Source: a virus. Taken from it: a DNA stretch of 49,982 nt. The notes below the pieces were generated by a model. That model ran no database searches. It was not told the DNA's origin and saw only the letters and a program-made list of their open reading frames with translations. Location: positions 1 through 49,982 of IMG/VR virus record IMGVR_UViG_3300012921_000001, one strand, 5' to 3'. Of the stretch, positions 9,659 to 49,982 are shown piece by piece. Numbering within the stretch: position 1 is the first letter of the stretch; each line of letters begins with the position of its first letter. A program made the translations under genes and the position numbers.

Positions 9659-9865
9659 ATGCCTAAGAAAGTACTGATCGCGCTGCCACCGGCGATGCTT
9701 GAGCAAGTGGATTTCATCGCACAGCACGAGCACCGGACAAGAAGCGATCTGATAAGAGAAGCATTGCGCCGCTACCTGGACAACTTCAGAAAGAACCAGG
9801 GCGCTGCACATTTGGCTATCAGTTCAATCGAAGTAAACGACCCATATAAACCGACACTCTCATGA
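9659..9865 (+). CDS. ribbon-helix-helix (CopG/Arc/MetJ) DNA-binding protein
   Basis: KKVLIALPPAMLEQVDFIAQHEHRTRSDLIREALRRYL has the canonical RHH pattern. TGGAG Shine-Dalgarno upstream. Confidence 0.75.
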   Translation: MPKKVLIALPPAMLEQVDFIAQHEHRTRSDLIREALRRYLDNFRKNQGAAHLAISSIEVNDPYKPTLS

Positions 9866-13220: not shown

Positions 13221-13567
13221 ACATCGAAGAGCAAAAACAAAAGCTGCTGGAGTGCGCCCAGAAGCTTGAAGAGTACAGCGAATTGATTGAGCCGCTTTTC
13301 CAGCTCGGTAGCGAGAATCTTGCACCTGGGACAGACTGGTGGTGCTGCATTGCTGGTATGCGTCACATCAATCTGGCGAACATTCGATTTTTGAAATCTA
13401 TGTCCAATGAACTTGAGCGGCCGAAGAAAGCGCTAGGTGACAGCTACCTGGACAGGCGAATGCTCAAGCAGAGAGAAAACACAATCGCTGCTCACGAGGT
13501 TGAAAGCCCTTGCGGCAACGGCTGCCTGCTGACCTGGAAGGCACAGCAGATCATCAATGAAACATAA
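13217..13567 (+). CDS. hypothetical protein
   Basis: ATG 13217 (MNIEEQKQ…) has an ATGA overlap. The longer track ORF starting at 13004 has an Arg-rich, implausible N-terminus. Confidence 0.55.
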   Translation: MNIEEQKQKLLECAQKLEEYSELIEPLFQLGSENLAPGTDWWCCIAGMRHINLANIRFLKSMSNELERPKKALGDSYLDRRMLKQRENTIAAHEVESPCGNGCLLTWKAQQIINET

Positions 13568-13594
13568 CCAGCATTATCAGAACACAGGAGTGCT

Positions 13595-13942
13595 ATGAAC
13601 GACCCCGAAACAATACTGCTAATAGCATGGCTGGTGATCAGCGCAGTTCTACTGGTAGTAACTGCGCGAGCACTAAAAGACTCTACTGAAGTAATGCGAC
13701 TTCAGCAGGAGCACGCCATATCCATCCAAGAACTTGCACGCATTCTAGAAGCGCCACCACATAAGGTGCAGGAGCTAGCAGACGCAACAGACTGCAAGGT
13801 CTGTCACAACACGTGCTGCACCGCGCCAGACTTCGTTAGACGCATGGCATGTGGCTGCATGGAAAGCCGCTTGCACTCTGAGAGCTGTTTCTACTACGTG
13901 TGCAAAAACTGTGACACAAGTTGCAAGTGTGAACCCGAATGA
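13595..13942 (+). CDS. membrane-anchored Cys-rich protein
   Basis: N-terminal TM helix ILLIAWLVISAVLLVV. The C-terminus carries 11 Cys (CKVCHNTCC…CKNCDTSCKC). AGGAG Shine-Dalgarno upstream. Confidence 0.6.
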   Translation: MNDPETILLIAWLVISAVLLVVTARALKDSTEVMRLQQEHAISIQELARILEAPPHKVQELADATDCKVCHNTCCTAPDFVRRMACGCMESRLHSESCFYYVCKNCDTSCKCEPE

Positions 13943-14106
13943 ATGAAGACAAAAACAAATGCACCACATGTGATGCAGAGTGCGACATGAAGCAGTGCAC
14001 AAACTGCTGGGAGGTAGAGCGTCGACTGGAAGATTATCTGAAATCACCAAAGGGCTTTGTCTTCGTGATGAAGGCCACAGCAAAAGAGGCGAAAAGACCA
14101 AAATGA
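13939..14106 (+). CDS. Cys-rich microprotein (55 aa), below the ORF-track cutoff
   Basis: My own translation: MNEDKNKCTTCDAECDMKQCTNCWEVERRLEDYLKSPKGFVFVMKATAKEAKRPK. ATGA overlaps at both ends. Confidence 0.5.
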   Translation: MNEDKNKCTTCDAECDMKQCTNCWEVERRLEDYLKSPKGFVFVMKATAKEAKRPK

Positions 14107-14297
14107 CACCAGAACAGAAAGCCGCCTATGTGGTGGCACAGGCAGCGCTGCTCAACGCGCGGATATCCGCCATGAAAGCTGAAAATGACTGCTATCCAGA
14201 TGCAATTCCATACGGAGAGAAGGCATTTGATGACGTGATAGAACAGTTCGACGGAATTCTGGGACACAACGCACTAATGGAGCTTTTCAAAGACTAA
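14103..14297 (+). CDS. hypothetical small protein
   Basis: ATG 14103 (MTPEQKAAYVV…) overlaps the upstream TGA. It lies in the frame of track ORF 13980..14297. Confidence 0.5.
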   Translation: MTPEQKAAYVVAQAALLNARISAMKAENDCYPDAIPYGEKAFDDVIEQFDGILGHNALMELFKD

Positions 14298-14461
14298 TGG
14301 AACTTTGTACTGACTGTGGAAAGTGTGCGGACCACTGCGTCTGCGATCACTTCGGTGAGGTCGGAGACTGCGAAGATTGCACTGAAGCTGAAGAAGAAGA
14401 GGAAGAAGACTGGGGAGAACCGAACCCTAACAGAAACGAGAAGGAGAGACCGAAGCAATGA
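14297..14461 (+). CDS. Cys-rich acidic microprotein (54 aa), below the ORF-track cutoff
   Basis: My own translation: MELCTDCGKCADHCVCDHFGEVGDCEDCTEAEEEEEEDWGEPNPNRNEKERPKQ. TAATG and ATGA overlaps with neighbours. Confidence 0.5.
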   Translation: MELCTDCGKCADHCVCDHFGEVGDCEDCTEAEEEEEEDWGEPNPNRNEKERPKQ

Positions 14462-14625
14462 AATACGCGCTCACACTGCAAATAGTTTTCGGAGTCATGG
14501 GAGTGATCGCGGATCAGTCCGGCTGTAGAGTCTCCAGCGTATTGTTTGATCTTTCAATGACCTGCTTCGGCTGGATATTGGGTTATTCACATTGCACAAG
14601 CGAGAACAAAAAGAACGATGGTTGA
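14458..14625 (+). CDS. hydrophobic microprotein (55 aa), below the ORF-track cutoff
   Basis: My own translation: MKYALTLQIVFGVMGVIADQSGCRVSSVLFDLSMTCFGWILGYSHCTSENKKNDG. Overlaps both neighbours. Confidence 0.4.
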   Translation: MKYALTLQIVFGVMGVIADQSGCRVSSVLFDLSMTCFGWILGYSHCTSENKKNDG

Positions 14626-14851
14626 GAAGTTCCCCGAAGGTCACACGCTGCCCTGCATCTGTGACGATGAAGACACTGTCTATCTGCACTTCCACCACGA
14701 CCTGGACGCGTCACTAAGACTAGACAGAGCAGTGAGCAGGCTCCTGGTGGAGATGTACCGGGGCGACTTGCGGAAGCTTGAAGAAGAGCTAGCAGGGCAA
14801 GACGGAATGACTCTGGGCAGGTGCCCGAAAAAGATAAAGGAGAGACGATGA
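14618..14851 (+). CDS. hypothetical protein
   Basis: 77-aa ORF coupled to both neighbours by overlaps. Confidence 0.55.
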   Translation: MVEKFPEGHTLPCICDDEDTVYLHFHHDLDASLRLDRAVSRLLVEMYRGDLRKLEEELAGQDGMTLGRCPKKIKERR

Positions 14852-15114
14852 ACGAAGAGCAACAGAGAAGAATACTTGCCGGTGACTATGCAAGCGTCGG
14901 CAGAGATATAAAAGAGCAAGCGAAAGAAACTGCTATCAAAGCCGACAAGCTGGCAAAGCACATTTACGAAAACCTGATCCCGAATCTCTGCATAGTGTTG
15001 AAGGGACAAAACGGCAAGCGCTGCAAGTGGGAAGAATGCCCTGAGCCTCTCAAGTTTGCCTACCAGATGACAGCTGTTTCTCTGGTCACATTTCACGGAG
15101 TTTCAATCGACTGA
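14848..15114 (+). CDS. hypothetical protein
   Basis: ATG 14848 (MNEEQQRR…) has an ATGA overlap and GGAGAG upstream. Confidence 0.55.
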   Translation: MNEEQQRRILAGDYASVGRDIKEQAKETAIKADKLAKHIYENLIPNLCIVLKGQNGKRCKWEECPEPLKFAYQMTAVSLVTFHGVSID

Positions 15115-15374
15115 TGGACAAACTGACCGCTAACGACCTGGACATCATCAACATCAGTCTTCGGCATGGCTACTTAATTCCACATAGCAACATTCGAAAA
15201 CTGGTAGCGGAAAACGAAAGACTTTCAAACCGGCTTCGACTTGCTGAACATGCGCTTGGAGCCGCCAACCCTAACACGGTGGAAGACCCAGGCTTCAGGC
15301 TTAAGTGTCTCTGCATTGAGCCGGAAAAATTTTGGCCCTGGTATGAGCAAGTATTGAAAGAGGATGGAGCATGA
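15114..15374 (+). CDS. hypothetical protein
   Basis: 86-aa ORF whose start overlaps the upstream stop by 1 nt. Confidence 0.55.
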   Translation: MDKLTANDLDIINISLRHGYLIPHSNIRKLVAENERLSNRLRLAEHALGAANPNTVEDPGFRLKCLCIEPEKFWPWYEQVLKEDGA

Positions 15375-15598
15375 GAAGCCCAGGCGCGAAAGTCTTTCGC
15401 TATGACGCCTACCTCAAGCCGATTGAAGAGAAGAAGCCGCTGGTGTTCAAACCGATTCAAGAGAGCTGGGCAGACAAGCGCAGACGATGGCGGAAAGAAG
15501 ATGAACAGCGCTTTTTGCAAGCCGTAAAAGAGGGGCACTACGAATTTCCAGGAATCAAAACAACAGATGCCAAAGAAGAAAAAGGAAAGACTGTTTAG
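15371..15598 (+). CDS. hypothetical protein
   Basis: 75-aa ORF with an ATGA overlap. Confidence 0.5.
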   Translation: MRSPGAKVFRYDAYLKPIEEKKPLVFKPIQESWADKRRRWRKEDEQRFLQAVKEGHYEFPGIKTTDAKEEKGKTV

Positions 15599-15920
15599 CC
15601 GCCTTGCCGAAGAGGTCGTGCACGTTGTTAACGTGCTGATTGGATTGGCTCAAGAAGGCAAATACAACACGCCGAAGTTTAACGAGGAGTACAAAAAGTT
15701 TGATCGCATGAGCAAGCTGATTGTGTTGCCCGAGTGTGACTGTGCAGAAATCGGAGAGCGCCTGGTCCTTGCAGAAGACATCTGCGAAAGGGCTTGTGAG
15801 CTGGCTTTCGTGAAGATGCCGGAAGCGCCCAGGGCGAATCTCAAGAAAGAGTTTAGTGACGCGTTGAAGGAATGGAGGAGCAAAGAGAGTGAAAACAGAC
15901 TTACAGAAGAAGATGGATGA
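15567..15920 (+). CDS. hypothetical protein
   Basis: 117-aa ORF overlapping its upstream neighbour by 32 nt. Confidence 0.5.
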   Translation: MPKKKKERLFSRLAEEVVHVVNVLIGLAQEGKYNTPKFNEEYKKFDRMSKLIVLPECDCAEIGERLVLAEDICERACELAFVKMPEAPRANLKKEFSDALKEWRSKESENRLTEEDG

Positions 15921-16182
15921 ATTGAGCCACGACTTAAGAAGCCAGTCATCAGTGGTTAATAAGAAGCTGGACCTGATTGAGCTAATCAGAACCTTGCCGG
16001 AAGAAGCACCAGATACTTTGACTCTGATGTATCAGCGTGGACCTGGTGGAAACATAGAGCACATTTTTGGAAGAAGGCACTCAAGTATTCCAGCCGAAGC
16101 ACGAGACATCATGAAGAAGGCGGCTACAAATGCCTTCAACGAAATCAGAGAGATGCTGGTGAAGAGACTAGAAGAGCTATGA
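15889..16182 (+). CDS. hypothetical protein
   Basis: GTG start 8 nt after GGAGGAG. 97 aa. Confidence 0.5.
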   Translation: MKTDLQKKMDELSHDLRSQSSVVNKKLDLIELIRTLPEEAPDTLTLMYQRGPGGNIEHIFGRRHSSIPAEARDIMKKAATNAFNEIREMLVKRLEEL

Positions 16183-16511
16183 GTTGCGGCAATCCAGAAG
16201 ATGCAGAAGGCGAGTGGATCGGCGGCAAGTTTGTGTTTACTGTTGAGTATGCTTTGCTGGGCTTCGATCACTACAGTCCCGAATCAGAAAGAAAGTTTGA
16301 AGATAGTTTCTTTCGTTGTCGCAGATGGTGCCTGCTTGCTGCCGACATTCAGCGCCGACTTGATCACGGAGTCTGGGACATCTTCAAGCCGCTTCTGCTT
16401 CGCCAGCAGCGAGCGTTAGCAACCGGCATAAAGGGTGTGGACATTGAGATTAGACACGCCGTCTGGTCCACATTACCGCCAGATTCTGATGGCTTCGTTT
16501 ACTTTGAATAG
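16179..16511 (+). CDS. hypothetical protein
   Basis: 110-aa ORF with an ATGA overlap. It is followed by a 56-nt gap with a weak hairpin and a T-rich stretch. Confidence 0.55.
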   Translation: MSCGNPEDAEGEWIGGKFVFTVEYALLGFDHYSPESERKFEDSFFRCRRWCLLAADIQRRLDHGVWDIFKPLLLRQQRALATGIKGVDIEIRHAVWSTLPPDSDGFVYFE

Positions 16512-16567
16512 AACACACCGCCGCGTCATCGTATTTGGTGGCGTGGCTTTTTATTGGAGCCAGTTAG

Positions 16568-16768
16568 ATGGATGAGGAGAAGCTCATAGCCATTGCTAAG
16601 AAATACGGCATGGATCGCTACCAGCTCAATTCACTGCTGCTTCCACTGAACTTCACAAAGCAGATTGAGCAGTTTCAGAATGCAATGCTGTTTGAAAAGC
16701 AAGAGCGAGAAAGGCGGCTGTACTGGGTGTTTAGATACCGAATCAACAGGAAGAAGGAACCGGAATGA
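16568..16768 (+). CDS. hypothetical protein
   Basis: 66-aa ORF with TGGAG Shine-Dalgarno 8 nt upstream. Confidence 0.5.
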   Translation: MDEEKLIAIAKKYGMDRYQLNSLLLPLNFTKQIEQFQNAMLFEKQERERRLYWVFRYRINRKKEPE

Positions 16769-17394
16769 GCAACACGAACCGAGGCAAAGCCCGCAACCCC
16801 GAAGACTTCTACCCCACAGAGCACTGGGTCACTCATGCTGCGCTGAAAGCTTTGCCTCAGCTTGCTCAGTATTCAGATGGCGTCTGGTGCGAACCGGCAG
16901 CAGGAGAAGGGCACATTGTGCAAGCCGTGGAGAGCTTCGGCTACCATCCAACCTGGCACCTCCTGGACCTTAGACCGGAATGCAAGAAACCGCTTCAGAA
17001 GCTCAACGTAGACCGCTCTCGTTTGTTTATCTCAACAGGTGAGATGTTTCAGTTCTGGGCTTACCCCAAAGCAGTGGACGTGCTCATCACGAATCCGCCT
17101 TACACATTTGCAGAAGACTTCATCAGAAGATCGCTGCTGTTTGCAAAGGTCGTTATCATGCTGCTTCGCTTGAACTACATCGGCAGCGAAGAGCGTGAGG
17201 ATTTATTCGACAAGTACCCGCCCGATCTCTATCCGGTGCATCCAAGACCTTTTCCCGATGCCACAGAATATGCCTGGTTCACCTGGGGCCTTTCGGAAGG
17301 TCACCACTGGCAAAGAATAAAAGGCTTCCGCCCCGAGAAAGAGCGAAAGCCTAAGAAGATTAGCGAAGGTCAGCTGCTATTTGATCTCCATTAA
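16765..17394 (+). CDS. DNA N6-adenine methyltransferase (orphan)
   Basis: AdoMet motif CEPAAGEGHIV and catalytic motif ITNPPY. ATGA overlap with the upstream gene. No endonuclease partner was seen. Confidence 0.85.
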   Translation: MSNTNRGKARNPEDFYPTEHWVTHAALKALPQLAQYSDGVWCEPAAGEGHIVQAVESFGYHPTWHLLDLRPECKKPLQKLNVDRSRLFISTGEMFQFWAYPKAVDVLITNPPYTFAEDFIRRSLLFAKVVIMLLRLNYIGSEEREDLFDKYPPDLYPVHPRPFPDATEYAWFTWGLSEGHHWQRIKGFRPEKERKPKKISEGQLLFDLH

Positions 17395-17961
17395 GAGCTT
17401 CAGCAGACAAGCCGCGCCGACTTGTTGTGATACCAGATTCGGATCGTACTTTCCATCACTGGCGTACTTGCCCTTCTTGTAGTGGTTTGTGAAACTCCAC
17501 AAATAGGGCGACTTCACATCAGGGTGATAGAGCCGGTATCCATACCCGTTGTAACCTTCCAGTTCCCAGAGCATCCTTGCAGTGCTCCAGTTCGTTACCT
17601 TGTCCAGCTTCCTGAGCTTCAGCGCATCTAGTGCCGACTCTTCCCAGGTGTAAGCAGAGCCTTTGCCAGCAGCCGGATCTGCTACCGGTCTGCCTTTTGG
17701 CACGTGCGTTGTTTTGCCAGTGAGCGGGTCACCATTGTGCAGGTGCTTCTTAAAGTTCAGCCCTGCTTCCATTGAGTGCACCACGGCAATGAATCGCCAC
17801 GGGATGCCCAGCTGGCTTCCAATCGCTTCATAGCGCTTGCGATAGGCAATGATTGCATTCACACGAGTCTTCACGTGGTGCATCAATTCCGGCTTGATGA
17901 CCATAGTGTTAAAGAGATTCGTGTACTCAGCAGTCAGAGCTGTGTTCAATTCCAGGCTCAT
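17377..17961 (-). CDS. endolysin, lysozyme-family protein (COG5526-type)
   Basis: GIPWRFIAVVHSME, NGDPLTGKTTHVPKGRP, ELEGYNGYGYR and SPYLWSFTNHYKKGKYASDG match my memory of this family. It is the last gene of the late operon, after holin-like genes. Confidence 0.75.
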   Translation of the reverse strand: MSLELNTALTAEYTNLFNTMVIKPELMHHVKTRVNAIIAYRKRYEAIGSQLGIPWRFIAVVHSMEAGLNFKKHLHNGDPLTGKTTHVPKGRPVADPAAGKGSAYTWEESALDALKLRKLDKVTNWSTARMLWELEGYNGYGYRLYHPDVKSPYLWSFTNHYKKGKYASDGKYDPNLVSQQVGAACLLKLLMEIK

Positions 17962-17964
17962 ACG

Positions 17965-18282
17965 TCACTTCCTTTTTGGGAATGCCCAGAGAATGACGCC
18001 AGCAATTGCACCGACACATACAGTGAGCACATAGTTGATATTGATCCCGATGCCGGCCTTCCCGCTGTATAGCGCCCATGAGTGCAACGAGAAGGCACCA
18101 AAAACGATGGCAATGAACGCGTTACCAGCAAGAAACAAAATCCACGCCTTAACGTAGGCGATGAGCTTCTTCTCTAGTCCGTGAATGCAGTCGATAAAGA
18201 ACGTGCAGCCACAGTCTGGACACTCGTGCTCTATTTCGTTTCCTTCGGGTTGCAGTGCTTCACTAGCTTCGTTGCCATCCAT
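17965..18282 (-). CDS. holin candidate (two TM helices) with an N-terminal CxxC motif
   Basis: 105 aa. TM helices WILFLAGNAFIAIVFGAF and VLTVCVGAIAGVILWAF. It sits immediately upstream of the endolysin. Confidence 0.6.
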   Translation of the reverse strand: MDGNEASEALQPEGNEIEHECPDCGCTFFIDCIHGLEKKLIAYVKAWILFLAGNAFIAIVFGAFSLHSWALYSGKAGIGININYVLTVCVGAIAGVILWAFPKRK

Positions 18283-18374
18283 CCCGCACAGTCTCCACGC
18301 ATAGCGATCACGACCGGCACCAGAACGATTGCCAGAATGATCGTGCCATTTACCACATACTCATGAGGGCTCAT
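18231..18374 (-). CDS. small single-TM protein (47 aa), below the ORF-track cutoff; possible second holin/antiholin
   Basis: My own translation: MSPHEYVVNGTIILAIVLVPVVIAMRGDCAGWMATKLVKHCNPKETK. TAATG coupling to the upstream gene. It overlaps the 105-aa ORF start by 52 nt. Confidence 0.35.
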   Translation of the reverse strand: MSPHEYVVNGTIILAIVLVPVVIAMRGDCAGWMATKLVKHCNPKETK

Positions 18375-41672: not shown

Positions 41673-42089
41673 TTACTCTTGGTCTAGTGCTTCTGCACTA
41701 GCGGCTTCTGCTGCGTCATGGGCTATGAGTTCAGCCTCTGCTGCACGCTCTGCTTCTGCCTCTGCTATGGCTTCTGCTACATGGTCAACCTCTATGGGTT
41801 CTGAGGCAGCTTCCTGTGATAAAGCTTGGCTGTCTTCTTGCTTTGGGGCTTCTTCTGCCGCCACCTCCACTGGTGCAGCAGCAGGCTCTTCAGCAGGGGT
41901 AAACCCTGGTGCTGCCTGTGGTCTACTCATACTGATGAGATGTGCCGACTGTGGGTAGCGTGCCACTTCACTAACGCCTTCACCTGATGCTGCATTGGCT
42001 AGGGCTAGGGCTTCTTCTTCGCTGTAATCGCCTTTGATTACAACCTGTTCTTTAATGGTGCTTTCTCTGGAATAAATTCGTTCAATCAT
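41673..42089 (-). CDS. acidic Ala/Glu-rich hypothetical protein
   Basis: The start overlaps the HNH gene stop by 8 nt. The antisense 107-aa Ala/Ser ORF is judged a mirror artefact. Confidence 0.55.
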   Translation of the reverse strand: MIERIYSRESTIKEQVVIKGDYSEEEALALANAASGEGVSEVARYPQSAHLISMSRPQAAPGFTPAEEPAAAPVEVAAEEAPKQEDSQALSQEAASEPIEVDHVAEAIAEAEAERAAEAELIAHDAAEAASAEALDQE

Positions 42090-42936
42090 GGATGACGTTA
42101 TCCTCTCTGGATGGTTCGTAGTGTTGCCACCAGTCTTCTACTAGGTAGGACCAATCGAAGGATTGATCACGTTTTTCGTCCTGCCTAATTCGCTCCATGC
42201 AGAGTGCGGCAGGTGTTTCTAGTACGAAGACCTTGGCACCATACCTAGCCCTGAATTCATCACGTGTGGCTTTCTTGGTGCCTGTGATAATGATCCATGC
42301 AGTAAGAGTACTTTCTTCTTTATCCAATGCTGCATAAATCGCGTCTCTGGCTTCCCAGCCGTATTTCAGGAGTTCGCGCGGTTTACGGTGAGTTTCAATT
42401 CCACAGAGTGCAGACATCAAAGCGTCGAAGTCCAAAACCAAATGATGTGGCTTTCGATTGTTTTTAACGAAGGTGGATTTACCGGAACCAGGGGGACCAC
42501 ATACGAGGAAGACAGTTCTGCCTGGTTTGCTACCTGTCCAGCCGTCTTCTTTCCTGGTCTTCGATGTGTGGCAGTCGTGGCAGAGAGATTGAATATTCTT
42601 GCCGTCTCTTCCATCGCTACCGCCGAAGCTCATCGGGATCATGTGGTCTACTTCGTTTGCAATTCGGCCACAGGGGTTTTGTTTTTGGTGGTGAAGGCAG
42701 GACTTCTCACACTGGCAGAAAGGGCTTGCGTTAGGGAATGCTTCGGATGGAGTGCTGAGTTGTCCAGGTCGAATTACGTCACGCCACACTTTTGAGTTAT
42801 AGAGTTTTTTGCTTTCCGGATCTCTTTCGCGTTTATCGCGTCGTTTGTTGTCGGTTTTTTTGCAGCGGTCACAGTAGCGTTTGCCAAGTTCGATGACCGC
42901 ATAGCAACCAGGTCCATTGCATTGTTTTTTTGGCAT
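42082..42936 (-). CDS. HNH endonuclease fused to a P-loop NTPase/kinase-like domain
   Basis: The N-terminal half has a CxxC zinc ribbon, VDHMIPMSFGG and NIQSLCHDCHTSKT. The C-terminal half has Walker A VCGPPGSGKST, LVLDFD, and a kinase-like lid with Arg residues. Confidence 0.8.
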   Translation of the reverse strand: MPKKQCNGPGCYAVIELGKRYCDRCKKTDNKRRDKRERDPESKKLYNSKVWRDVIRPGQLSTPSEAFPNASPFCQCEKSCLHHQKQNPCGRIANEVDHMIPMSFGGSDGRDGKNIQSLCHDCHTSKTRKEDGWTGSKPGRTVFLVCGPPGSGKSTFVKNNRKPHHLVLDFDALMSALCGIETHRKPRELLKYGWEARDAIYAALDKEESTLTAWIIITGTKKATRDEFRARYGAKVFVLETPAALCMERIRQDEKRDQSFDWSYLVEDWWQHYEPSREDNVIHD

Positions 42937-43016
42937 GGGTTATCCTGTTGGATATATAAATGTATGAGTTTTGGATTAGACAGCTGGCACCGTCTGTGAT
43001 GCTTCTAAAAATGATT

Positions 43017-43050
43017 GCCAGGTGTGATTAGACCTGGCTAGCTATTTTTT
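43017..43050. terminator. hairpin with flanking A and T runs (weak bidirectional terminator candidate)
   Basis: GCCAGGT-8 nt-ACCTGGC, then TAGCTATTTTTT on the plus strand and AATCATTTTT on the minus strand. The U-tracts are offset 5-6 nt from the stem. Confidence 0.35.
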
Positions 43051-43144
43051 AAGCTCAGGGCGGCTGTGAGAGGCTGGAAAAGTGGAGCCGCGGGTTAGCC
43101 GCGGGCGGCACTTCTTTCTCACTGAGCTGACTGCATAAATCAAT

Positions 43145-43237
43145 AGACTATTAGATCTTAGTCAGTCAGTCTCAGTCTTAAGACTAGTCTGTCTTAGACT
43201 AAGACTACGTCTTAGACTAAGACTAGACTGGGAGTCT
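43145..43237. promoter_or_regulatory. dense AGACT/AGTCT pentamer array with overlapping palindromes (operator/activator-site candidate)
   Basis: I count 11 pentamers in 93 bp. Palindromes: AGTCTTAAGACT (43174..43185), AGACTAGTCT (43181..43190), and GTCTTAG-A-CTAAGAC twice (43191..43205 and 43209..43223). Confidence 0.6.
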
Positions 43238-43308
43238 GAGGGGTCAAGTGGAAATCTGAATTGTGTGGTATCGTTCCCGGTGATTGGTCCGCACAACTTG
43301 GAGCCCGT

Positions 43309-43950
43309 ATGACTGATGTATATCGGTTCAATATTGGCATAGCGAAACGCACACTGACGTGTTGGCTGTGCCCAATGAAGTGTTCTTCTGGCAGTGAAGT
43401 GGCCTGGGATGAAGAGTCGAAGAAAAAGCATGACTCCATTCGCATTGCTTGCCTTCCATGTGCCAAGAAACAAGTAGCCGCTGGTAAAGGTGAGTTCAGG
43501 CCAAAAACAGAAACGCCCGCACGGAGTGCAGGCGCTTCAGGATTGGTCGCATCCACTGGAGGCAACAATGAAATTATATCTCTACTTACTGAGATCAGAG
43601 ATCTTCACAAGTCAAACAATGCGATGTTGAAAAAGTTGATGCTCGAGCGTGGACTAGAAATCGAAGAGCAAAGTGATTTTAGTCCACCTGAACAATTTCC
43701 CGATCTAGCGGTCTTTGGAGATACGAAACCGACACATGAGTACTCCACGTACTTAGATTGGGTAAATGAGAACCATGAAGAACTGGCAAGGTTTCTTGGT
43801 GAGCACTGCAAGTCATTCAGCTATGAAGACAGCACTGCAAACATCGGCATCACTTCTCAATTCGTTTCATATGCAGAGAAGAACAGAAAGCTGCTCAGCT
43901 CCTACTTTCCTGCAAAGACACAAGTGAACTTCGTACCTGTTAACCGTTGA
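43309..43950 (+). CDS. zinc-ribbon protein of unknown function, the only plus-strand gene in the right arm
   Basis: ATG 43309 lies 5 nt after GGAG (the track start 43261 is TTG). The N-terminus is CWLCPMKC…CLPCAKK. Its 3' end overlaps the convergent gene by 11 nt. Confidence 0.6.
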   Translation: MTDVYRFNIGIAKRTLTCWLCPMKCSSGSEVAWDEESKKKHDSIRIACLPCAKKQVAAGKGEFRPKTETPARSAGASGLVASTGGNNEIISLLTEIRDLHKSNNAMLKKLMLERGLEIEEQSDFSPPEQFPDLAVFGDTKPTHEYSTYLDWVNENHEELARFLGEHCKSFSYEDSTANIGITSQFVSYAEKNRKLLSSYFPAKTQVNFVPVNR

Positions 43951-44113
43951 GAAACGAGCAAAACAAGGCAAAGCCGGCTCCACCGCATATGGTGGCAACT
44001 GTCAGGCCAAAAATGCTGCCCAGAATAAAGCCTTTCATAAGTGCACTCTGGGCTGCTTTGCGGTCGAAGTAGAGCTTATCCTCTGCTGCAATCAGGTCGG
44101 CTATCTCAGTCAT
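43940..44113 (-). CDS. small protein with a C-terminal TM helix (57 aa)
   Basis: ATG 44113 (MTEIADLI…) has an ATGACTGA overlap with the upstream stop and GAGGAAAG Shine-Dalgarno. TM helix GFILGSIFGLTVATICGGAGFALF. Confidence 0.5.
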   Translation of the reverse strand: MTEIADLIAAEDKLYFDRKAAQSALMKGFILGSIFGLTVATICGGAGFALFCSFLNG

Positions 44114-44441
44114 CACTTCTTTCCTCATCAAGATCGGGCAGTGGAACAGTTTTGCCTGCCAGTTCGTGAGTGCAATCGCCACAGAACTGGATCATGCCAT
44201 CAGTTACAAACAGGTGACAGATCTCTGGCCCACCGTCCTCAGCTCTAAATGGAGTTGTATGCAGCAGACTTGCCTGGAAGGTTGGCTTTTCCATGTTGCC
44301 GTTAAACGTCCAGCGTGGACCAGGATAAGAGCATTTGATTGTGTAGACATGCCCGTGTTTACAGGCTGGGCAGAAGAATAGATAGCCTTCATGGTCATGG
44401 CAGTCACCGTGCTGATGTGACTGAGGCAATAGGGTTCTCAT
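44106..44441 (-). CDS. His/Cys-rich zinc-binding protein (DUF6527-like by recall)
   Basis: FFCPACKHGH…RWTFNGNMEKPTFQASL…CHLFVTDGMIQFCGDCTHELAGKTVPL is a pattern I associate with this phage-borne family. Confidence 0.6.
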   Translation of the reverse strand: MRTLLPQSHQHGDCHDHEGYLFFCPACKHGHVYTIKCSYPGPRWTFNGNMEKPTFQASLLHTTPFRAEDGGPEICHLFVTDGMIQFCGDCTHELAGKTVPLPDLDEERSDD

Positions 44442-44662
44442 TCTTGATCCTCCAGCCTTCCATACCTAGCGAATTCACGCTGCCACTCGGGGACAGTCTC
44501 ACCTCTTAAGTCTGCAAGCTTGCACTGATACCAGGCACACATCCTAGTTTTTCTCCAGGCTTCTCTCTCCCAGCGCTTCATGTGTCGATAAAACGCCTGA
44601 GCCAAGCCAATGAGAAAGCTGTTGATTAAGCAAACAAAGAAGAAAGCCCATTCAAGTGTCAT
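44438..44662 (-). CDS. small N-terminal-TM protein (74 aa)
   Basis: ATG 44662 (MTLEWAFFFVCLINSFLIGLAQAF…) has an ATGA overlap with the upstream microprotein. Confidence 0.5.
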   Translation of the reverse strand: MTLEWAFFFVCLINSFLIGLAQAFYRHMKRWEREAWRKTRMCAWYQCKLADLRGETVPEWQREFARYGRLEDQE

Positions 44663-44790
44663 CGCTTGTTTTGCTCCTCTACAGCCATCTCCTGCCACTT
44701 CTTAGCCTCGTCGTGCATTTCCTGGTTGTATTTCCAGAGAATGCAGACAAGGATGAAGAGTGACAGCTCTAAAAGGTGATGACCGGTCAT
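44659..44790 (-). CDS. single-TM microprotein (43 aa), below the ORF-track cutoff
   Basis: My own translation: MTGHHLLELSLFILVCILWKYNQEMHDEAKKWQEMAVEEQNKR. ATGA overlaps at both ends. Confidence 0.4.
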   Translation of the reverse strand: MTGHHLLELSLFILVCILWKYNQEMHDEAKKWQEMAVEEQNKR

Positions 44791-44975
44791 GAGTATTGGA
44801 TTTCTCCCTTTGTGGTTAAGACAGAAGCTCTATCAAGGACGGTAACCCTCCACCGCCCTGGCTCCACTTCATTCAGCGCAGTCAGAGCAGCTTCTAGTTT
44901 GTCCATAGCTTCGGCTTCTGCCTTCAGATACTCGGGTGTGTGCCTGGCGGCATATTGGTCAACAAATTTGCTCAT
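44787..44975 (-). CDS. hypothetical small protein
   Basis: 62-aa ORF with an ATGA overlap. Confidence 0.5.
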   Translation of the reverse strand: MSKFVDQYAARHTPEYLKAEAEAMDKLEAALTALNEVEPGRWRVTVLDRASVLTTKGEIQYS

Positions 44976-45253
44976 TTGGTGGCATCCTTCACAGCTTCCT
45001 TCTGTTCTGTCGGCTTGACTGTGTTGAGCTTGAGCTTCTGAATGACCTTCAGCCCTTGCTCTCTGCCCTTGTAATAGGCTCTCCAGCCAAGCACGCCTAG
45101 GACAGGACCGGCAACGAGACCGACACCGACATAGACCGGGAATGTGGCGATCTTTTCCACCTTGAGCTTAAATGCAGCCTTGTCGAAGGCGTGAGCCTCC
45201 TGGGCGTTCAAGAATGCCAACAGTATTGCCACAGCGGTTAGACGCTTGATCAT
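44972..45253 (-). CDS. signal-peptide plus TM small protein (93 aa)
   Basis: ATG 45253 follows GAAGGTG. Signal peptide MIKRLTAVAILLAFLNAQEAHA-FD, then TM helix FPVYVGVGLVAGPVLGVLGW. It is the first gene after the 45362..45390 terminator. Confidence 0.55.
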   Translation of the reverse strand: MIKRLTAVAILLAFLNAQEAHAFDKAAFKLKVEKIATFPVYVGVGLVAGPVLGVLGWRAYYKGREQGLKVIQKLKLNTVKPTEQKEAVKDATK

Positions 45254-45361
45254 TTTGCACCTTCTTTCGGGCACCGGATACGCCACCAATAATAAGAGAG
45301 CAGAGAAGGTGGATATGATCTGCAGTCGGTTTAATGCCACCAGATAGAGTGCCTGTAAGGG

Positions 45362-45390
45362 CAAAAAAAAACCGCCCCGTTAGAGGCGGT
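45362..45390 (-). terminator. rho-independent terminator
   Basis: On the minus strand: ACCGCC-8 nt loop-GGCGGT followed by 8 T. It lies 12 nt after the stop of 45403..45666. Confidence 0.8.
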
Positions 45391-45402
45391 TTCTTCGGTT
45401 TC

Positions 45403-45666
45403 TCAAGGTGATTGCCTGAAATGCAATCGAGCGGAAATCAGACCATGTATCTGTTGTGCAATTGGTTCAAGCAGGGTGAAGTAGCACTTTTCATGAGTTT
45501 TATCATCGTATTGCACCACGTGTGGAAAGTTGGCTGATATGGCATTGAACAGCTCTGTAAACTGCTCTTGAGTTACCAAAACTTCCGTTAGTAGCTCACC
45601 CCGCTTAGGCTCTGCACTCAGAAGCCGCACATCAGGACACCCTGACACTTTCAATAAGCGATTCAC
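45403..45666 (-). CDS. hypothetical protein
   Basis: 87 aa, with a GTGA overlap to the upstream gene. Confidence 0.5.
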   Translation of the reverse strand: MNRLLKVSGCPDVRLLSAEPKRGELLTEVLVTQEQFTELFNAISANFPHVVQYDDKTHEKCYFTLLEPIAQQIHGLISARLHFRQSP

Positions 45667-46055
45667 GGTTTCTTCACCTCCACAGCTTCACCGTTAACGA
45701 CTTTCAAACCATGACCGACAAACATAGAATGCCTGACCTTTGCAGTGTTGAAAATACACTCCATCCGGTGGCAGTCGATGCCTTCATACACTGCGAACTG
45801 CTGTCCAGGGTCATTAATACCCCAGCGGTATGTCTCATCATCTGCTTCCAGAATCGGATCAAATTTGCTTTCGTTGACGTTCGCTGGAGACGGCAGCAGA
45901 TCGCGAAAGATGAAATCATCTCGATAGCCACCACGCCCAACGAAGACATACAGACCAGTTGCAGCAGCAGGCACCCATTTGCTGAAGATGGTGCCTTCAG
46001 TCATGTTCATTAGTTCTTCTCGTGTCACTAACTTCACGGTTTCGCTTGCCTCCAA
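45663..46055 (-). CDS. hypothetical protein
   Basis: 130-aa track ORF. The start is uncertain (TTG 46055, GTG 46037, or an internal ATG). Confidence 0.5.
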   Translation of the reverse strand: MEASETVKLVTREELMNMTEGTIFSKWVPAAATGLYVFVGRGGYRDDFIFRDLLPSPANVNESKFDPILEADDETYRWGINDPGQQFAVYEGIDCHRMECIFNTAKVRHSMFVGHGLKVVNGEAVEVKKP

Positions 46056-48879: not shown

Positions 48880-49782
48880 TTACCCTGTGGAGTAAAGTTT
48901 GTGCCCCTGTCCTGGAGCTGGGCTAATTATACGATGGGGGTACTCACTTTTACTCCCCAGTAAAATCTCTTCAACCCCTTCCATGGCGCCCCGCACCGGT
49001 TCTAGGTCTAGCCGCGCATAGACTGCCGTTGAGCGCTGATCGCGGTGCCCAAGCGCCTTGCCGATGACATAAGGTGAAGCACCTTTTATCGCAAGGTAGC
49101 TGCCGACCGTGCGGCGAAGGTCGTGAATGCGTAAGTTCTCGATACCTGCACGGCTCAAGACTCGTGCCCATGCACGCTTAGGCTCTCTCAGGTGTCCACC
49201 GTACCTGCCGGGAAAGACGTACTGGCTGGTGCTCAGAGCCTTTCTCGCGAAAAGAATCTGAGCAGCAGACTTGCAGAGTGGCAGTGTGTGGAGGTCGTCA
49301 TTCTTCGCATCGAAACGCCATATCAGCAGGTCCAGGTCTATTTCCTTCCATTGCATCGCCAGGACGTTGCCGCGCCGGGCCCCTGTTAAAAGGCATATAA
49401 GGAAAAAGTCTCTCAAGGTCGGTTCTTCTTTCATCAGAGAATCAAAGAAAGCCGCCAGCTCACCAGGCATCAGAAACCGTTCACGGGGCTTGATACTGAA
49501 CCGCTCCACACCAATACAGGGGTTGCTGTCGATATAGCCGCGCTTGATGCCCCAGCCGAAGATTGCCGCCAGCTGGTTGACCGCCCTGGTGGCTGAAGAC
49601 TTGCTGGCTGCGGCCAGGTCGTCTACCCAGTCCTGAACTTCCCGCTTTGTGATGTTGGCAATGTCCTTGCCGGTCCACTGATGGCTGTGGGCCGACCAAA
49701 AGTAGTGGACATTTTCAGGGCAGCGTGTTCTGACCATGGCGTGCTTCGTGTAATAGAGCTGATAGAGCTGATCTACTTGCAT
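48880..49782 (-). CDS. int: tyrosine recombinase / phage integrase
   Basis: LTGARRG (Arg I), RIHDLRRT (His-x-x-Arg), LGHRD (His), TAVYARL (Tyr nucleophile). Adjacent to attR. Confidence 0.92.
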   Translation of the reverse strand: MQVDQLYQLYYTKHAMVRTRCPENVHYFWSAHSHQWTGKDIANITKREVQDWVDDLAAASKSSATRAVNQLAAIFGWGIKRGYIDSNPCIGVERFSIKPRERFLMPGELAAFFDSLMKEEPTLRDFFLICLLTGARRGNVLAMQWKEIDLDLLIWRFDAKNDDLHTLPLCKSAAQILFARKALSTSQYVFPGRYGGHLREPKRAWARVLSRAGIENLRIHDLRRTVGSYLAIKGASPYVIGKALGHRDQRSTAVYARLDLEPVRGAMEGVEEILLGSKSEYPHRIISPAPGQGHKLYSTG

Positions 49783-49888: not shown

Positions 49889-49924
49889 CGAAAGTGTGAC
49901 CCCAGATCACGCGAAAGCGTGACC
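49889..49924 (+). repeat. two direct 13-bp repeats CGAAAG(T/C)GTGACC spaced 23 bp apart, next to the att core (arm-type site candidates)
   Basis: Copies at 49889..49901 and 49912..49924. GGTCAC, the reverse complement of GTGACC, also occurs inside the 47-bp core. The palindrome TCACGC-GAAA-GCGTGA lies at 49907..49922. Confidence 0.45.
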
Positions 49925-49935
49925 AGGCGGGGCTT

Positions 49936-49982
49936 TTCAATGGCATTGAAGAGGTCACCGGTTCGACCCCGGTACGCTCCAA
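49936..49982 (+). repeat. attR: second perfect copy of the 47-bp tRNA-Ala 3' segment
   Basis: Identical to 1..47. The sequence upstream (…gcgtgaccaggcggggctt) cannot form a tRNA 5' half, so this copy is an att duplicate rather than a gene. Confidence 0.85.

What the first reader, a model, noticed from the sequence alone, without database searches (positions are those of the whole stretch)
43309..45253. Accessory module preceded by a terminator, wedged between the early-left operon and the late operon
A strong intrinsic terminator (45362..45390) ends the upstream minus-strand operon. After it come six tiny, translationally coupled genes linked by ATGA overlaps:
- a signal-peptide plus TM protein;
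- a 62-aa soluble protein;
- a 43-aa TM peptide;
- a 74-aa TM protein;
- a His/Cys zinc protein (DUF6527-like by recall);
- a 57-aa protein with a C-terminal TM helix.

These converge on, and overlap by 11 nt, the only plus-strand gene of the right arm, a 213-aa zinc-ribbon protein that has its own operator-like array. None of these genes has a recognisable role in the virion, replication or lysis. The position, just upstream of the late operon, is where lambdoid phages carry morons and lysogenic-conversion cargo. This is my best candidate for an undescribed superinfection-exclusion, defence or membrane-acting system.
Basis: partly seen in the sequence, partly recalled or inferred. Interest (0 to 1): 0.7.

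Follow-up and report, generated by a model that had tools for sequence, protein, structure and literature searches.

The report
Conserved phage membrane-protein operon with BubE-like enzyme
A temperate phage carries, just upstream of its DNA-packaging genes, a conserved operon for four tiny inner-membrane proteins plus a zinc-binding BubE-like (DUF6527) hydrolase; it is a fixed part of this phage lineage rather than swappable cargo, and elsewhere the same enzyme family usually sits inside phage lysis cassettes.

Summary
The terminator, six small overlapping minus-strand genes, the convergent 213-aa zinc-ribbon gene and its repeat array are all present. Five of the small ORFs that could be compared codon by codon are under purifying selection (dN/dS 0.08-0.22).

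The "accessory cargo/defence" reading is only partly supported:
- The block recurs at the same place in four other diverged phage lineages.
- Its GC content is normal.
- It matches no known defence family.

The conserved core is four bitopic inner-membrane proteins (gpA, gpC, gpD, gpF). gpB and gpE sit in variable slots.

gpE is a confirmed DUF6527/BubE-family protein. Ser, His and Cys residues are invariant in its family, and no E1, E2 or ubiquitin-like partner is present. In 80 bacterial genomes, about half of its homologues' same-strand upstream neighbours are endolysins of at least eight unrelated families. Many downstream neighbours are Rz/Rz1 spanins.

Two conserved terminators insulate the operon. 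The second lies antisense inside gpG. gpG is restricted to this lineage, evolves fast, and its repeat array changes with it, so it is probably a regulator at the head of the late operon.

Best guess, at low confidence: a lytic-cycle operon that controls the envelope or lysis step.

The parts
45362..45391 (-). Intrinsic terminator T1, which ends the int-side operon upstream of the module
   Evidence: The sequence is a GC-rich hairpin followed by T9. Folding energy is -20 kcal/mol, z = -4.6. The 29-nt hairpin is identical in L006 and 96.6% identical in L008, although L008 coding DNA is only about 65-70% identical.
45254..45306 (-). Conserved leader containing TTATTATTGGTGGCGTATCCGGTGCCCGAAAGAAGGTGCAAA, just before the gpA start; it holds the ribosome-binding site and possibly an activator-dependent promoter
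   Evidence: It is 94-95% identical in L008 and L093, where the gpA protein is only 37-38% identical. Its 5' 22 nt occur only once in the window. The sigma-70 scan found no minus-strand promoter here.
44972..45253 (-). gpA, 93 aa: signal peptide with an A-x-A cleavage motif, one TM segment, and a basic cytoplasmic tail (+6)
   Evidence: Hydropathy is. The A-x-A motif is kept in all five lineages: AHA in the window, L006 and L099; AEA in L008 and L093. Identity is 91% (L006), 38% (L008), 37% (L093) and 45% (L099). dN/dS is 0.22. No family hit.
44787..44975 (-). gpB, 62 aa, soluble; sits in a variable slot
   Evidence: It is found only in L006/L007, at 82% identity. L008 has an unrelated Cys-rich 95-aa protein in this slot, and L099 has no gpB homologue. 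dN/dS is 0.21.
44659..44790 (-). gpC, 43 aa: N-terminal TM segment and an acidic cytoplasmic tail
   Evidence: TM prediction is. It is conserved in L006 (91%), L093 (47%), L099 (53%), and in L008 as the C-terminal 42 aa of a called 78-aa ORF. dN/dS is 0.08.
44438..44662 (-). gpD, 74 aa: N-terminal TM segment and an Arg/Trp-rich cytoplasmic domain ending in YGRLEDQ
   Evidence: One search gives the TM prediction; one search gives the alignment. Identity is 90% (L006), 65% (L008) and 29% (L099). L093 has no tblastn match but carries a TM protein in the same slot. All relatives keep the C-terminal YG(R/K)LEDQ, which overlaps the gpE ribosome-binding site. dN/dS is 0.14.
44106..44441 (-). gpE, 111 aa: phage-type DUF6527/BubE-family zinc-binding protein with a putative Ser-His active site
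   Evidence: - Pfam PF20137: E = 1.8e-8, above the cut-off. phrog_3362: E = 2.4e-32.
- C24, C27, S58, C75, H76, D89 and H92 are invariant in 49 homologues.
- The AlphaFold2 model is all-beta, pLDDT 83.5, with no PDB fold match.
- In L099 two unrelated small genes take its place.
43940..44113 (-). gpF, 57 aa, tail-anchored: conserved cytoplasmic motif AAEDKLYFDRKA followed by a C-terminal TM segment
   Evidence: TM prediction is. Homologues are in L006, L008, L093 and L099 at 54-64% identity. The starts of the L008 and L093 homologues confirm the 57-aa start.
43309..43950 (+). gpG, 213 aa: N-terminal CxxC...CxxC zinc ribbon, a linker, and a variable C-terminal domain with a DFSPP motif; a candidate sequence-specific regulator
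   Evidence: Only four representatives exist among 1.84 billion proteins, all from this phage lineage. It is only 30% identical between the window and L006, whose flanking genes are 82-97% identical. It has no Pfam, PHROG, NCBIfam or PADLOC hit.
43500..43538 (-). Terminator T2 on the module strand, embedded antisense in the gpG linker (TETPA..AGAS)
   Evidence: - It is a 13-bp stem followed by UUUCUGUUUUU.
- Folding energy on the module strand is -26.2 kcal/mol (z = -5.2), against -20.5 on the gpG sense strand.
- L006 gives -22.7 against -12.9, and L008 gives -21.9 against -13.1.
- 3 of 13 pairs show compensatory changes.
- The hairpin is at the same place in L006 and L008.
43145..43237 (.). 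Repeat/operator array between gpG and the late operon: two perfect 15-bp palindromes plus AGACT/AGTCT pentamers
   Evidence: Described. L006 and L008 have arrays at the same place built from different motifs: GGATCGAC/ATCCATCC in L006 and ATCCATCC/GGATTGGA in L008. The motifs change along with gpG.
43242..43247 (-). TTGACC, a -35-like hexamer facing the late operon, just upstream of the array
   Evidence: TTGACCC is kept in the window, L006 and L008 inside an otherwise unalignable region. That it belongs to a promoter is an inference.
43017..43038 (-). Terminator-like hairpin T3 in the leader of the HNH/terminase operon
   Evidence: Found. It lies at the right-hand boundary of the segment swapped between the window and L006; DNA identity resumes at 43012.

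Best explanation
The block is a conserved, lineage-specific operon of the lytic cycle, not cargo.

**Composition.**
- It encodes four small bitopic inner-membrane proteins whose soluble parts face the cytoplasm.
  - gpA is type I, formed after signal-peptide cleavage.
  - gpC and gpD are N-out/C-in.
  - gpF is tail-anchored.
- These four are the conserved core and probably form one membrane complex, because their genes are translationally coupled.
- Soluble passengers sit in two variable slots: gpB, and gpE.
- gpE is a stand-alone phage version of the BubE/DUF6527 zinc-stabilised Ser-His hydrolase.

**Transcription.**
- Terminator T1 stops transcription from the int side.
- The operon starts from the strongly conserved leader.
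- It ends at T2, a hairpin hidden antisense inside gpG. Module transcripts therefore cannot read into the late-operon control region, and module and gpG transcripts are mutually antisense.

**gpG.** It is a fast-evolving zinc-ribbon protein. It most likely binds the co-varying repeat array next to a conserved TTGACC and controls the promoter of the HNH-terminase-head-tail-lysis operon.

**Function.** I infer a role in controlling or assisting the envelope/lysis step. One version is holin/antiholin-like timing at the inner membrane. Another is recruitment of the gpE hydrolase.
- gpE's family is built into lysis cassettes elsewhere.
- The block occupies the classical lysis-cassette position next to the packaging genes.
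- This genome has a holin-endolysin pair but no recognisable spanin.

**Shown versus inferred.**
- Shown: anatomy, conservation, purifying selection, family membership of gpE, and the terminators.
- Inferred: the membrane complex, the timing of expression, gpG binding to the array, and the lysis link.
For: **Real genes, conserved as a unit**
- dN/dS is 0.08-0.22 for gpA to gpE.
- The same order recurs next to gpG homologues in L006/L007, L008, L093 and L099.
- In L006 and L008 the HNH-terminase operon follows directly.

**Core versus passengers**
- L099 keeps gpA, gpC, gpD and gpF but has 38-aa and 60-aa genes in place of gpE.
- L008 lacks gpB.
- L006 has an extra 96-aa gene.

**Topology.**. 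The A-x-A signal-peptidase motif of gpA is kept in all five lineages.

**gpE**
- It scores above the Pfam cut-off.
- Ser, His and Cys residues are invariant in its family.
- The predicted fold is confident, all-beta, and has no PDB relative, as reported for BubE.

**Link to lysis**
- Of 51 same-strand upstream neighbours of DUF6527 genes in 80 genomes, about 24 carry peptidoglycan-hydrolase domains.
  - The families are Phage_lysozyme 10, GH108 4, GH19 4, Amidase_2 2, Amidase_3 1, Glucosaminidase 1, M15_3 1 and M15_4 1.
  - That is at least eight unrelated families.
- Of 48 downstream neighbours, between 8 and 21 match Rz-like spanin PHROGs.
- Rz1-like lipobox ORFs lie downstream in 12 of 66 loci, against 1 of 66 upstream.
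- Isolated phages show the same picture: Haddon, RHph_TM3_3_3, phi3LM21 and the L009 phage.
- The window has a candidate holin-endolysin set at 17377-18374.
- It has no lipobox/spanin candidate anywhere.

**Insulation.** T1 and the leader are nearly identical across relatives. T2 is strand-asymmetric, conserved, and shows compensatory changes.

**gpG as regulator**
- The family is confined to this lineage.
- gpG is 30% identical between the window and L006, against 82-97% for its neighbours.
- DNA similarity breaks sharply at 43013-44053.
- The array motif differs from phage to phage.
Against: - The block contains no endolysin, holin family member or spanin.
- A separate holin-endolysin cluster already exists at the far end of the late operon.
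- gpA has a cleavable signal peptide, which is unusual for holins.
- All soluble domains are cytoplasmic, so the proteins cannot span the periplasm as spanins do.
- gpE sits in a replaceable slot (L099). Its lysis association therefore need not transfer to the four membrane proteins.
- In L099 the module follows upstream genes with no terminator, and in L008 it lies next to int. Both fit an early or lysogenic operon equally well.
- DUF6527 genes also occur beside portal/MuF genes and, in Ackermannviridae, near nucleotide-metabolism genes. The family may simply be late-expressed rather than lysis-specific.
- No promoter was identified.
- There are no expression data.
Confidence: 0.33

Rival explanations
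1. The four membrane proteins form a superinfection-exclusion or other lysogen-expressed membrane system. It would be made from its own promoter in the prophage and would block DNA entry or alter the envelope. gpB and gpE would be add-ons.
For: - The proteins are small inner-membrane proteins, typical of Sie functions.
- The block is bracketed by terminators, like a self-contained expression unit.
- It lies on the int side of the genome and directly next to int in L008.
- The strongly conserved leader could be a constitutive promoter.
- It matches no lytic-function family.
Against: - The block is conserved in five diverged lineages rather than patchily distributed.
- GC content is normal.
- No sigma-70 promoter was detected.
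- PADLOC gave no hit.
- The proteins expose almost nothing to the periplasm.
- gpE's family is found in virulent phages and in late/lysis contexts.
- Expression in a lysogen would run antisense into gpG.
Confidence: 0.24
2. The block is an early host-takeover module and timer. It would be the distal part of the int-side early operon, reached by read-through or antitermination at T1. Its membrane proteins would act on host inner-membrane processes such as division, proteolysis or transport, in the manner of lambda Kil or cIII. Its transcript, antisense to gpG, would delay gpG and therefore late-gene expression.
For: - The block is on the same strand as the int-side genes and immediately downstream of them.
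- In L099 no terminator separates them.
- The module transcript would cover about 430 nt of gpG in antisense before T2.
- This convergent arrangement is conserved in every lineage member where that side of the locus was seen: L006, L008, L093 and L099.
Against: - T1 is a strong terminator with nine U residues, and it is conserved.
- No antiterminator was identified.
- gpE homologues are mostly in late contexts.
- Nothing resembles known Kil or cIII proteins.
Confidence: 0.2
3. gpE is a counter-defence enzyme. As a BubE-like isopeptidase, it would strip host ubiquitin-like tags (Bil or Bub systems) from phage virion proteins during assembly. The neighbouring membrane proteins would be unrelated, or would localise it.
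For: - BubE cleaves peptide and isopeptide bonds at the C-terminus of the ubiquitin-like protein.
- Bil systems tag phage tail proteins.
- Phage homologues keep invariant Ser, His and Cys residues and occur without E1, E2 or ubiquitin-like genes.
- Their late-gene contexts, beside lysis and portal/MuF genes, match the time when virion proteins are made.
Against: - Nothing was found in the literature library on phage DUF6527 proteins; the only papers that mention DUF6527 are the Bub papers.
- BubE activity in vitro is very weak and specific to its own ubiquitin-like protein.
- This idea does not explain the specific, translationally coupled position between endolysin and Rz.
- It also does not explain the four conserved membrane proteins, which persist without gpE in L099.
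Confidence: 0.1

Closest known systems
BubE (DUF6527, Pfam PF20137), the serine protease of bacterial Bub (6E) ubiquitination-like operons (bioRxiv 10.1101/2024.11.21.623953)
   Same: - gpE scores above the Pfam cut-off.
- It is a small all-beta protein with conserved Cys residues for a structural zinc.
- It has invariant Ser and His residues.
- It has no structural relatives in the PDB.
   Different: - It stands alone. There is no E1, E2, ubiquitin-like or JAB gene in the window, and none among the neighbours of 80 homologues.
- The Cys pattern is CxxC...C(H), not CxCxC...C.
- It has an extra invariant C-terminal motif, D-C-T-H-E-L-A-G-K-T-V-P, outside the Pfam model.
- It has no hydrophobic extension.
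- Its genomic context is phage late and lysis genes.
Lambda-type lysis cassette (tR' terminator, then S, R, Rz/Rz1, then cos and terminase)
   Same: - It lies after a terminator and immediately upstream of the packaging genes.
- It is a run of small membrane proteins with charged cytoplasmic tails.
- It contains a gene family (DUF6527) that elsewhere lies between endolysin and Rz.
   Different: - It has no endolysin, no known holin family member and no lipoprotein spanin.
- A convergent gene and two further terminators separate it from the packaging genes.
- The phage's likely holin-endolysin pair is about 26 kb away, at 17377-18374.
Phage superinfection-exclusion membrane proteins and morons (T4 Imm/Sp, P22 SieA, HK97 gp15); named from general knowledge, not compared here
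   Same: The proteins are small inner-membrane proteins, and the unit is bounded by terminators.
   Different: The block is conserved as a syntenic core in diverged relatives, has normal composition and no detectable promoter. It shows no homology to any Sie family in PHROGs or PADLOC.
Zinc-finger late-gene regulators (P2 Ogr/P4 Delta; lambda Q with its cognate qut site); named from general knowledge
   Same: - gpG has a CxxC...CxxC zinc ribbon.
- It sits at the head of the late operon next to a promoter-like element, a repeat array and a leader terminator.
- The gene and its array are exchanged together between related phages, as Q and qut are.
   Different: - It has no sequence similarity to the Ogr_Delta family or any other family.
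- It is transcribed divergently from the late operon.
- DNA binding has not been tested.

Membership tests
Pfam PF20137 DUF6527/BubE | Profile HMM score above the curated gathering threshold | tested here: met
   34.6 bits against a cut-off of 23.6, E = 1.8e-8, covering residues 20-87. phrog_3362 gives E = 2.4e-32. All 140 homologues carry PF20137.
Pfam PF20137 DUF6527/BubE | Conserved Ser-His catalytic dyad (S92/H102 in Citrobacter BubE) | tested here: inconclusive
   S58, H76 and H92 are invariant in 49 phage-type homologues. Their spacing within the Pfam match fits S58 = S92 and H76 = H102. No BubE sequence from a Bub operon could be obtained for a direct alignment.
Pfam PF20137 DUF6527/BubE | Four-ligand structural zinc site (C57/C59/C61/C99 in BubE) | tested here: inconclusive
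   C24, C27 and C75 are invariant and H31 is about 90% conserved. The pattern is CxxC, not CxCxC. Metal binding cannot be tested here.
Pfam PF20137 DUF6527/BubE | Compact beta-sandwich fold without close structural homologues | tested here: met
   The AlphaFold2 model is all-beta, with pLDDT 83.5 and pTM 0.74. The best PDB match has E = 1. Only viral DUF6527 models match.
Bub (6E) ubiquitination-like operon | Adjacent E1, E2 and ubiquitin-like genes | tested here: not met
   None was found among nearly all ORFs of the window. None appears among the families most often hit by the immediate neighbours of DUF6527 genes in 80 genomes.
Canonical lysis cassette | Contains a peptidoglycan hydrolase (endolysin) | tested here: not met
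   No module protein has a hydrolase domain other than DUF6527. The candidate endolysin is at 17377-17961.
Canonical lysis cassette | Holin: a small protein with one or more TM segments and a charged C-terminus, belonging to a holin family | tested here: inconclusive
   gpA, gpC and gpD have this general architecture. They match no holin family, and gpA has a cleavable signal peptide.
Canonical lysis cassette | Spanin: a lipobox lipoprotein (o- or u-spanin), or an i-spanin with a periplasmic domain | tested here: not met
   A scan of the whole window found no plausible lipobox ORF. The soluble domains of gpC, gpD and gpF are predicted to be cytoplasmic.
Moron / lysogenic-conversion cargo | Patchy presence among close relatives and deviant base composition | tested here: not met
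   The core is present in all five lineages found. GC is 0.495 against about 0.50 for the genome.
Moron / lysogenic-conversion cargo | Own promoter and terminator | tested here: inconclusive
   Terminators lie on both sides. No sigma-70-like promoter was found, but the leader is strongly conserved.
Known anti-phage defence systems (PADLOC-DB v2) | Match to any defence-protein model | tested here: not met
   The only hit is a chance-level KwaA match for gpA (E = 0.026, 12.5 bits). The other six proteins hit nothing.
Known late-gene regulators (Ogr/Delta, Q) for gpG | Sequence membership in the family | tested here: not met
   No Pfam, PHROG or NCBIfam hit. An exhaustive HMMER search found only four lineage-specific relatives.

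The most novel reading that the evidence does not exclude
Phage-type DUF6527/BubE proteins may be an unrecognised, widespread enzymatic component of phage lysis.

- They would be zinc-stabilised Ser-His (iso)peptidases expressed with endolysin and spanins.
- They would cut an envelope linkage that glycosidase endolysins cannot. Candidates are the Lpp-peptidoglycan bond or cross-link isopeptide bonds.
- In this spanin-less phage lineage the enzyme would have been moved into a new four-protein inner-membrane complex (gpA, gpC, gpD, gpF).
- That complex would govern the last steps of envelope disruption.
Probability: 0.15. Interest if true: 0.8.

Novelty: new variant of a known kind. Interest (0 to 1): 0.55.

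Why it matters
**If the lysis link holds.**
- DUF6527 would move from "a protease of an enigmatic bacterial ubiquitin-like pathway" to "a common phage lysis-cassette enzyme".
- That gives a testable role to a family found in hundreds of sequenced phages, including Ackermannviridae, 9NA and RcapMu.
- It could also add a further enzyme to the holin-endolysin-spanin model of lysis.

**The four-membrane-protein core.** This is a set of conserved phage proteins with no known relatives. It may show how a phage without spanins completes lysis, or how it modifies the host inner membrane.

**The regulatory layout.**
- A terminator is hidden antisense in the linker of a regulator gene.
- That gene and its binding array are swapped together between phages.
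- This is a compact, testable example of insulation and convergent-transcription control.

**If instead the block is a superinfection-exclusion system.** It would be an unusually conserved one.

Tried and rejected
**Searches that found nothing**
- Megablast of 42900-45700 against phage records and E. coli genomes gave no match.
- The gpE and P0001 sequences of the window are not in the contig index.
- A concatenated query of gpA, gpB, gpC, gpD and gpF found nothing in the 5.8-billion-protein search. Relatives do exist in Logan and ENA assemblies, so that database appears to lack these tiny proteins; this is not evidence of absence.
- Scans of viral contigs with HNH, gpG and gpD, and of metagenome contigs with gpD, found only one truncated relative.
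- NCBIfam, PADLOC, Rfam and PDB sequence and profile searches were all negative.

**Attempts that failed**
- I tried to get a true BubE sequence for a residue-level alignment. Neither plasmid tblastn nor the paper's supplements provided one.
- PHROG annotation of the genes upstream of the module in L099 was uninformative.
- No promoter motif is shared between the module leader, the late leader and the lysis region.

**Ideas rejected**
- *gpA as a u-spanin, or gpC/gpD as o-/i-spanins.* There is no lipobox and the domains are cytoplasmic.
- *gpG as the main immunity repressor.* This is less likely because an HTH gene and a palindrome lie in the int/early-right divergent region.
- *The block as a Bub-like ubiquitination system.* No partner genes are present.

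Full report
**1. What the window is.**

The first 47 nt repeat at the end of the window, so it is a complete circular phage genome of about 49.9 kb. The phage is temperate and only distantly related to sequenced phages.
- TerL is about 30% identical to its best phage hits.
- An integrase lies at 48880-49782 on the minus strand.

Genome layout:
- The plus strand from about 115 to 17394 carries an HTH gene, DnaB, an RHH protein, an exonuclease and a methylase.
- Nearly all remaining genes are on the minus strand.
- In order they are: int, nine small unknown genes, the block under study, then an HNH-AAA_33 fusion, TerS, TerL, portal, protease, capsid and tail genes.
- At the far end are a 47-aa TM peptide, a 105-aa multi-TM protein and a 194-aa protein.
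- The 194-aa protein is 38% identical (E = 4e-22) to the N-terminal part of a "peptidoglycan-binding protein" that follows the tail genes of Bradyrhizobium phage ppBjS10J-1.
- That set is the likely holin-endolysin pair.
- A lipobox scan of the whole genome found no spanin candidate.

**2. Checking the observation.**

- The terminator is at 45362-45391 (-20 kcal/mol, z = -4.6).
- gpA to gpF are 93, 62, 43, 74, 111 and 57 aa.
- Four junctions are ATGA overlaps and the gpE/gpF junction overlaps by 8 nt.
- gpG (213 aa, plus strand) overlaps gpF tail to tail by 11 nt.
- gpE is DUF6527, above the Pfam cut-off.
- The array holds two perfect 15-bp palindromes and an approximately 50-fold excess of AGACT/AGTCT pentamers.
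- gpA to gpE have dN/dS of 0.08-0.22 against relative L006, similar to the neighbouring HNH gene. Even the 43-aa ORF is therefore a real gene.

**3. Relatives.**

Close homologues of gpE and gpG led to contigs from four other diverged lineages of the same phage group.

| Relative | Marker identity | gpA | gpB | gpC | gpD | gpE | gpF | gpG |
|---|---|---|---|---|---|---|---|---|
| L006/L007 | HNH 97% | 91% | 82% | 91% | 90% | 90% | 64% | 30% |
| L008 | HNH 55%, int 68% | 38% | absent | present | 65% | 61% | 54% | 34% |
| L093 | not available | 37% | not seen | 47% | gpD-like | 71% | 64% | weak |
| L099 | gpG 51% | 45% | absent | 53% | 29% (gpD-like) | replaced | 61% | 51% |

- L006 also has an extra 96-aa Cys-rich gene.
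- In L008 an unrelated 95-aa protein occupies the gpB slot.
- In L099 a 38-aa TM peptide and a 60-aa protein take the place of gpE.

Two conclusions follow.
- The invariant core is the four membrane proteins next to gpG.
- gpB and gpE occupy variable slots.

This is the opposite of what patchy cargo would show. GC content is also ordinary, and PADLOC finds nothing.

**4. The four membrane proteins.**

- *gpA.* It has a signal peptide whose A-x-A cleavage motif is kept in all five lineages. One TM segment follows, then a basic cytoplasmic tail of about 36 aa.
- *gpC and gpD.* Each has an N-terminal TM segment. Positive charges follow it, which places the C-terminal domains in the cytoplasm.
- *gpF.* It has a conserved cytoplasmic motif (AAEDKLYFDRKA) and a C-terminal anchor.

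None exposes more than a few residues to the periplasm, so they cannot be spanins. They match no holin, Sie or other family.

**5. gpE.**

What is known about the family:
- DUF6527 is now BubE, a protease of bacterial Bub (6E) ubiquitination-like operons.
- It has a Ser-His dyad and a four-Cys zinc site, and it cleaves conjugates of the ubiquitin-like protein.
- It has no structural homologue.

What gpE shows:
- In 49 homologues of gpE, the residues C24, C27, W44, N47, P53, F55, S58, C75, H76, G82, D89, H92 and G96 are invariant.
- The AlphaFold2 model is a confident all-beta fold (pLDDT 83.5) with no PDB match.
- Family membership is therefore met.
- Residue-level equivalence of the dyad is inferred from spacing only, because I could not obtain a BubE sequence.
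- Membership of a Bub operon is not met, since no E1, E2 or ubiquitin-like gene is present.

**6. Where phage DUF6527 genes live.**

tblastn finds the family in 303 phage records, none with a meaningful functional annotation. A scan of one genome per species returned 80 loci across many phyla. I called genes around each locus and scanned the immediate neighbours.

*Upstream neighbours.* Of 51 same-strand upstream neighbours, about 24 carry peptidoglycan-hydrolase domains from at least eight unrelated families.
- Phage_lysozyme 10
- GH108 4
- GH19 4
- Amidase_2 2
- Amidase_3 1
- Glucosaminidase 1
- Peptidase_M15_3 1
- Peptidase_M15_4 1

*Downstream neighbours.*
- Of 48 downstream neighbours, between 8 and 21 match Rz-like spanin PHROGs.
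- A strict lipobox scan finds Rz1-like ORFs downstream in 12 of 66 loci. It finds them in 1 of 66 upstream and 2 of 66 on the other strand.

*Other observations.*
- Gaps between these genes are mostly -4 to +7 nt.
- Isolated phages show the same arrangement: Haddon, RHph_TM3_3_3, phi3LM21 and the L009 phage.
- Endolysins are roughly one gene in fifty in a prophage (my estimate). Recurrence next to non-homologous endolysins therefore points to a functional link or shared timing, not descent.
- A second recurrent context is beside portal/MuF genes: 9NA, RcapMu, and the two Portal_Mu hits and one Phage_Mu_F hit.
- In Ackermannviridae the gene lies near nucleotide-metabolism genes.
- In the library searched, the only papers that mention DUF6527 are the Bub papers, and they say nothing about phage-encoded copies.

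**7. Regulatory anatomy.**

- *T1 and the leader.* T1 and the leader before gpA (about 53 nt, with gpA's first codons) are 94-100% identical in relatives whose coding DNA is only 65-70% identical. They are conserved control elements. The sigma-70 scan found no promoter on the module strand.
- *T2.* A second hairpin lies inside gpG on the module strand.
  - It is much more stable on that strand: -26.2, -22.7 and -21.9 kcal/mol, against -20.5, -12.9 and -13.1 on the gpG strand.
  - It is conserved in position.
  - It shows 3 compensatory pairs out of 13.
  - A U-rich tract follows it.
  - It would stop module transcripts about 430 nt into gpG, before they reach the array and the late-operon leader.
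- *gpG.*
  - It has only four representatives among 1.84 billion proteins.
  - It is 30% identical between the window and L006.
  - Together with its array, it forms a sharply bounded replaced segment (43013-44053) between flanks that are 86-94% identical.
  - The arrays of L006 and L008 use different motifs, while an adjacent TTGACCC is kept.
  - This pattern fits a sequence-specific regulator and its sites at the head of the late operon.
  - Binding has not been tested, and only three phages could be compared.

**8. Interpretation.**

I rank four readings.

1. **A lytic-cycle inner-membrane operon linked to the envelope/lysis step, with gpE as a passenger hydrolase (0.33).**
   - The lysis link rests on the context of gpE's family, the position next to the packaging genes, and the missing spanin.
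   - It is weakened because gpE sits in a replaceable slot and a holin-endolysin pair exists elsewhere in the genome.
2. **A lysogen-expressed Sie or other membrane system (0.24).**
3. **An early host-takeover module whose transcript acts as an antisense timer on gpG (0.20).**
4. **gpE as a counter-defence enzyme that removes ubiquitin-like tags (0.10).**

No explanation accounts for everything.

**9. Novelty.**

- gpE is a new, stand-alone phage variant of a known family.
- The four-protein membrane core and gpG have no known relatives.
- The recurrent endolysin-DUF6527-Rz arrangement seems to be undescribed.
- It is the most interesting lead to come out of this finding.

Noticed in passing
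L013-L092 (80 genome loci), plus phage loci L003, L009, L097 and L098: DUF6527/BubE-like genes sit again and again directly between an endolysin and the Rz/Rz1 spanin genes, usually translationally coupled. The endolysins belong to at least eight unrelated families. I found no description of this in the literature library.
   Followed up: partly
window 1-47 and 49936-49982: A 47-nt terminal direct repeat shows that the contig is a complete circular (or circularly permuted) phage genome of about 49,935 bp.
   Followed up: yes
window 49914-49981 (+): ARAGORN calls a tRNA-Ala(GGC)-like sequence just upstream of the integrase start. It is a likely attP/tRNA integration site. It has no match in E. 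coli genomes, so the host is not E. coli.
   Followed up: partly
window 17377-18374 (-): This is the probable holin-endolysin set: a 47-aa TM peptide, a 105-aa protein with an acidic Cys/His-rich N-terminus and 2-3 TM segments, and a 194-aa protein. The 194-aa protein has no Pfam, PHROG, NCBIfam or PDB match but resembles the N-terminal domain of a Bradyrhizobium phage 'peptidoglycan-binding protein'. It may represent an unclassified endolysin catalytic domain.
   Followed up: partly
whole window: No lipobox-containing o-spanin or u-spanin candidate exists in any frame near either lysis-related region. The phage appears to lack canonical spanins.
   Followed up: partly
window 42082-42936 (-): The first gene of the packaging operon is a fusion of an HNH endonuclease and an AAA_33 P-loop kinase-like domain. 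It matches phrog_4581, which is annotated 'terminase small subunit'. A separate TerS (phrog_83; Terminase_4 in L006) lies further downstream.
   Followed up: no
window 43013-44053 against L006 3250-4612: This is a sharply bounded mosaic replacement. The C-terminus of gpF, gpG and the repeat array share no DNA similarity with L006, while both flanks are 86-94% identical. L006 also has an extra 81-aa gene here.
   Followed up: yes
window 1-15 (repeated at 49936-49950): A near-perfect 15-bp palindrome, TTCAATGGCATTGAA, lies in the divergent region between int and the first plus-strand genes, one of which (407-679) has an HTH-like sequence. This may be the main lysis-lysogeny switch.
   Followed up: no
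window 43086-43108: A GC-rich hairpin (GCCGCGGGTTAGCCGCGGGCGGC, with a direct repeat of AGCCGCGGG) lies in the late-operon leader, between the repeat array and the T3 hairpin. Its function is unknown; it could be related to cos/pac or to antitermination.
   Followed up: no
L099 1018-1317 and L006 2329-2619: The variable slots of the module hold other tiny genes in relatives. L099 has a 38-aa TM peptide and a 60-aa acidic protein in place of gpE. L006 has an extra 96-aa Cys-rich zinc-ribbon-like protein between gpC and gpD. L008 has a 95-aa Cys-rich protein in place of gpB.
   Followed up: partly
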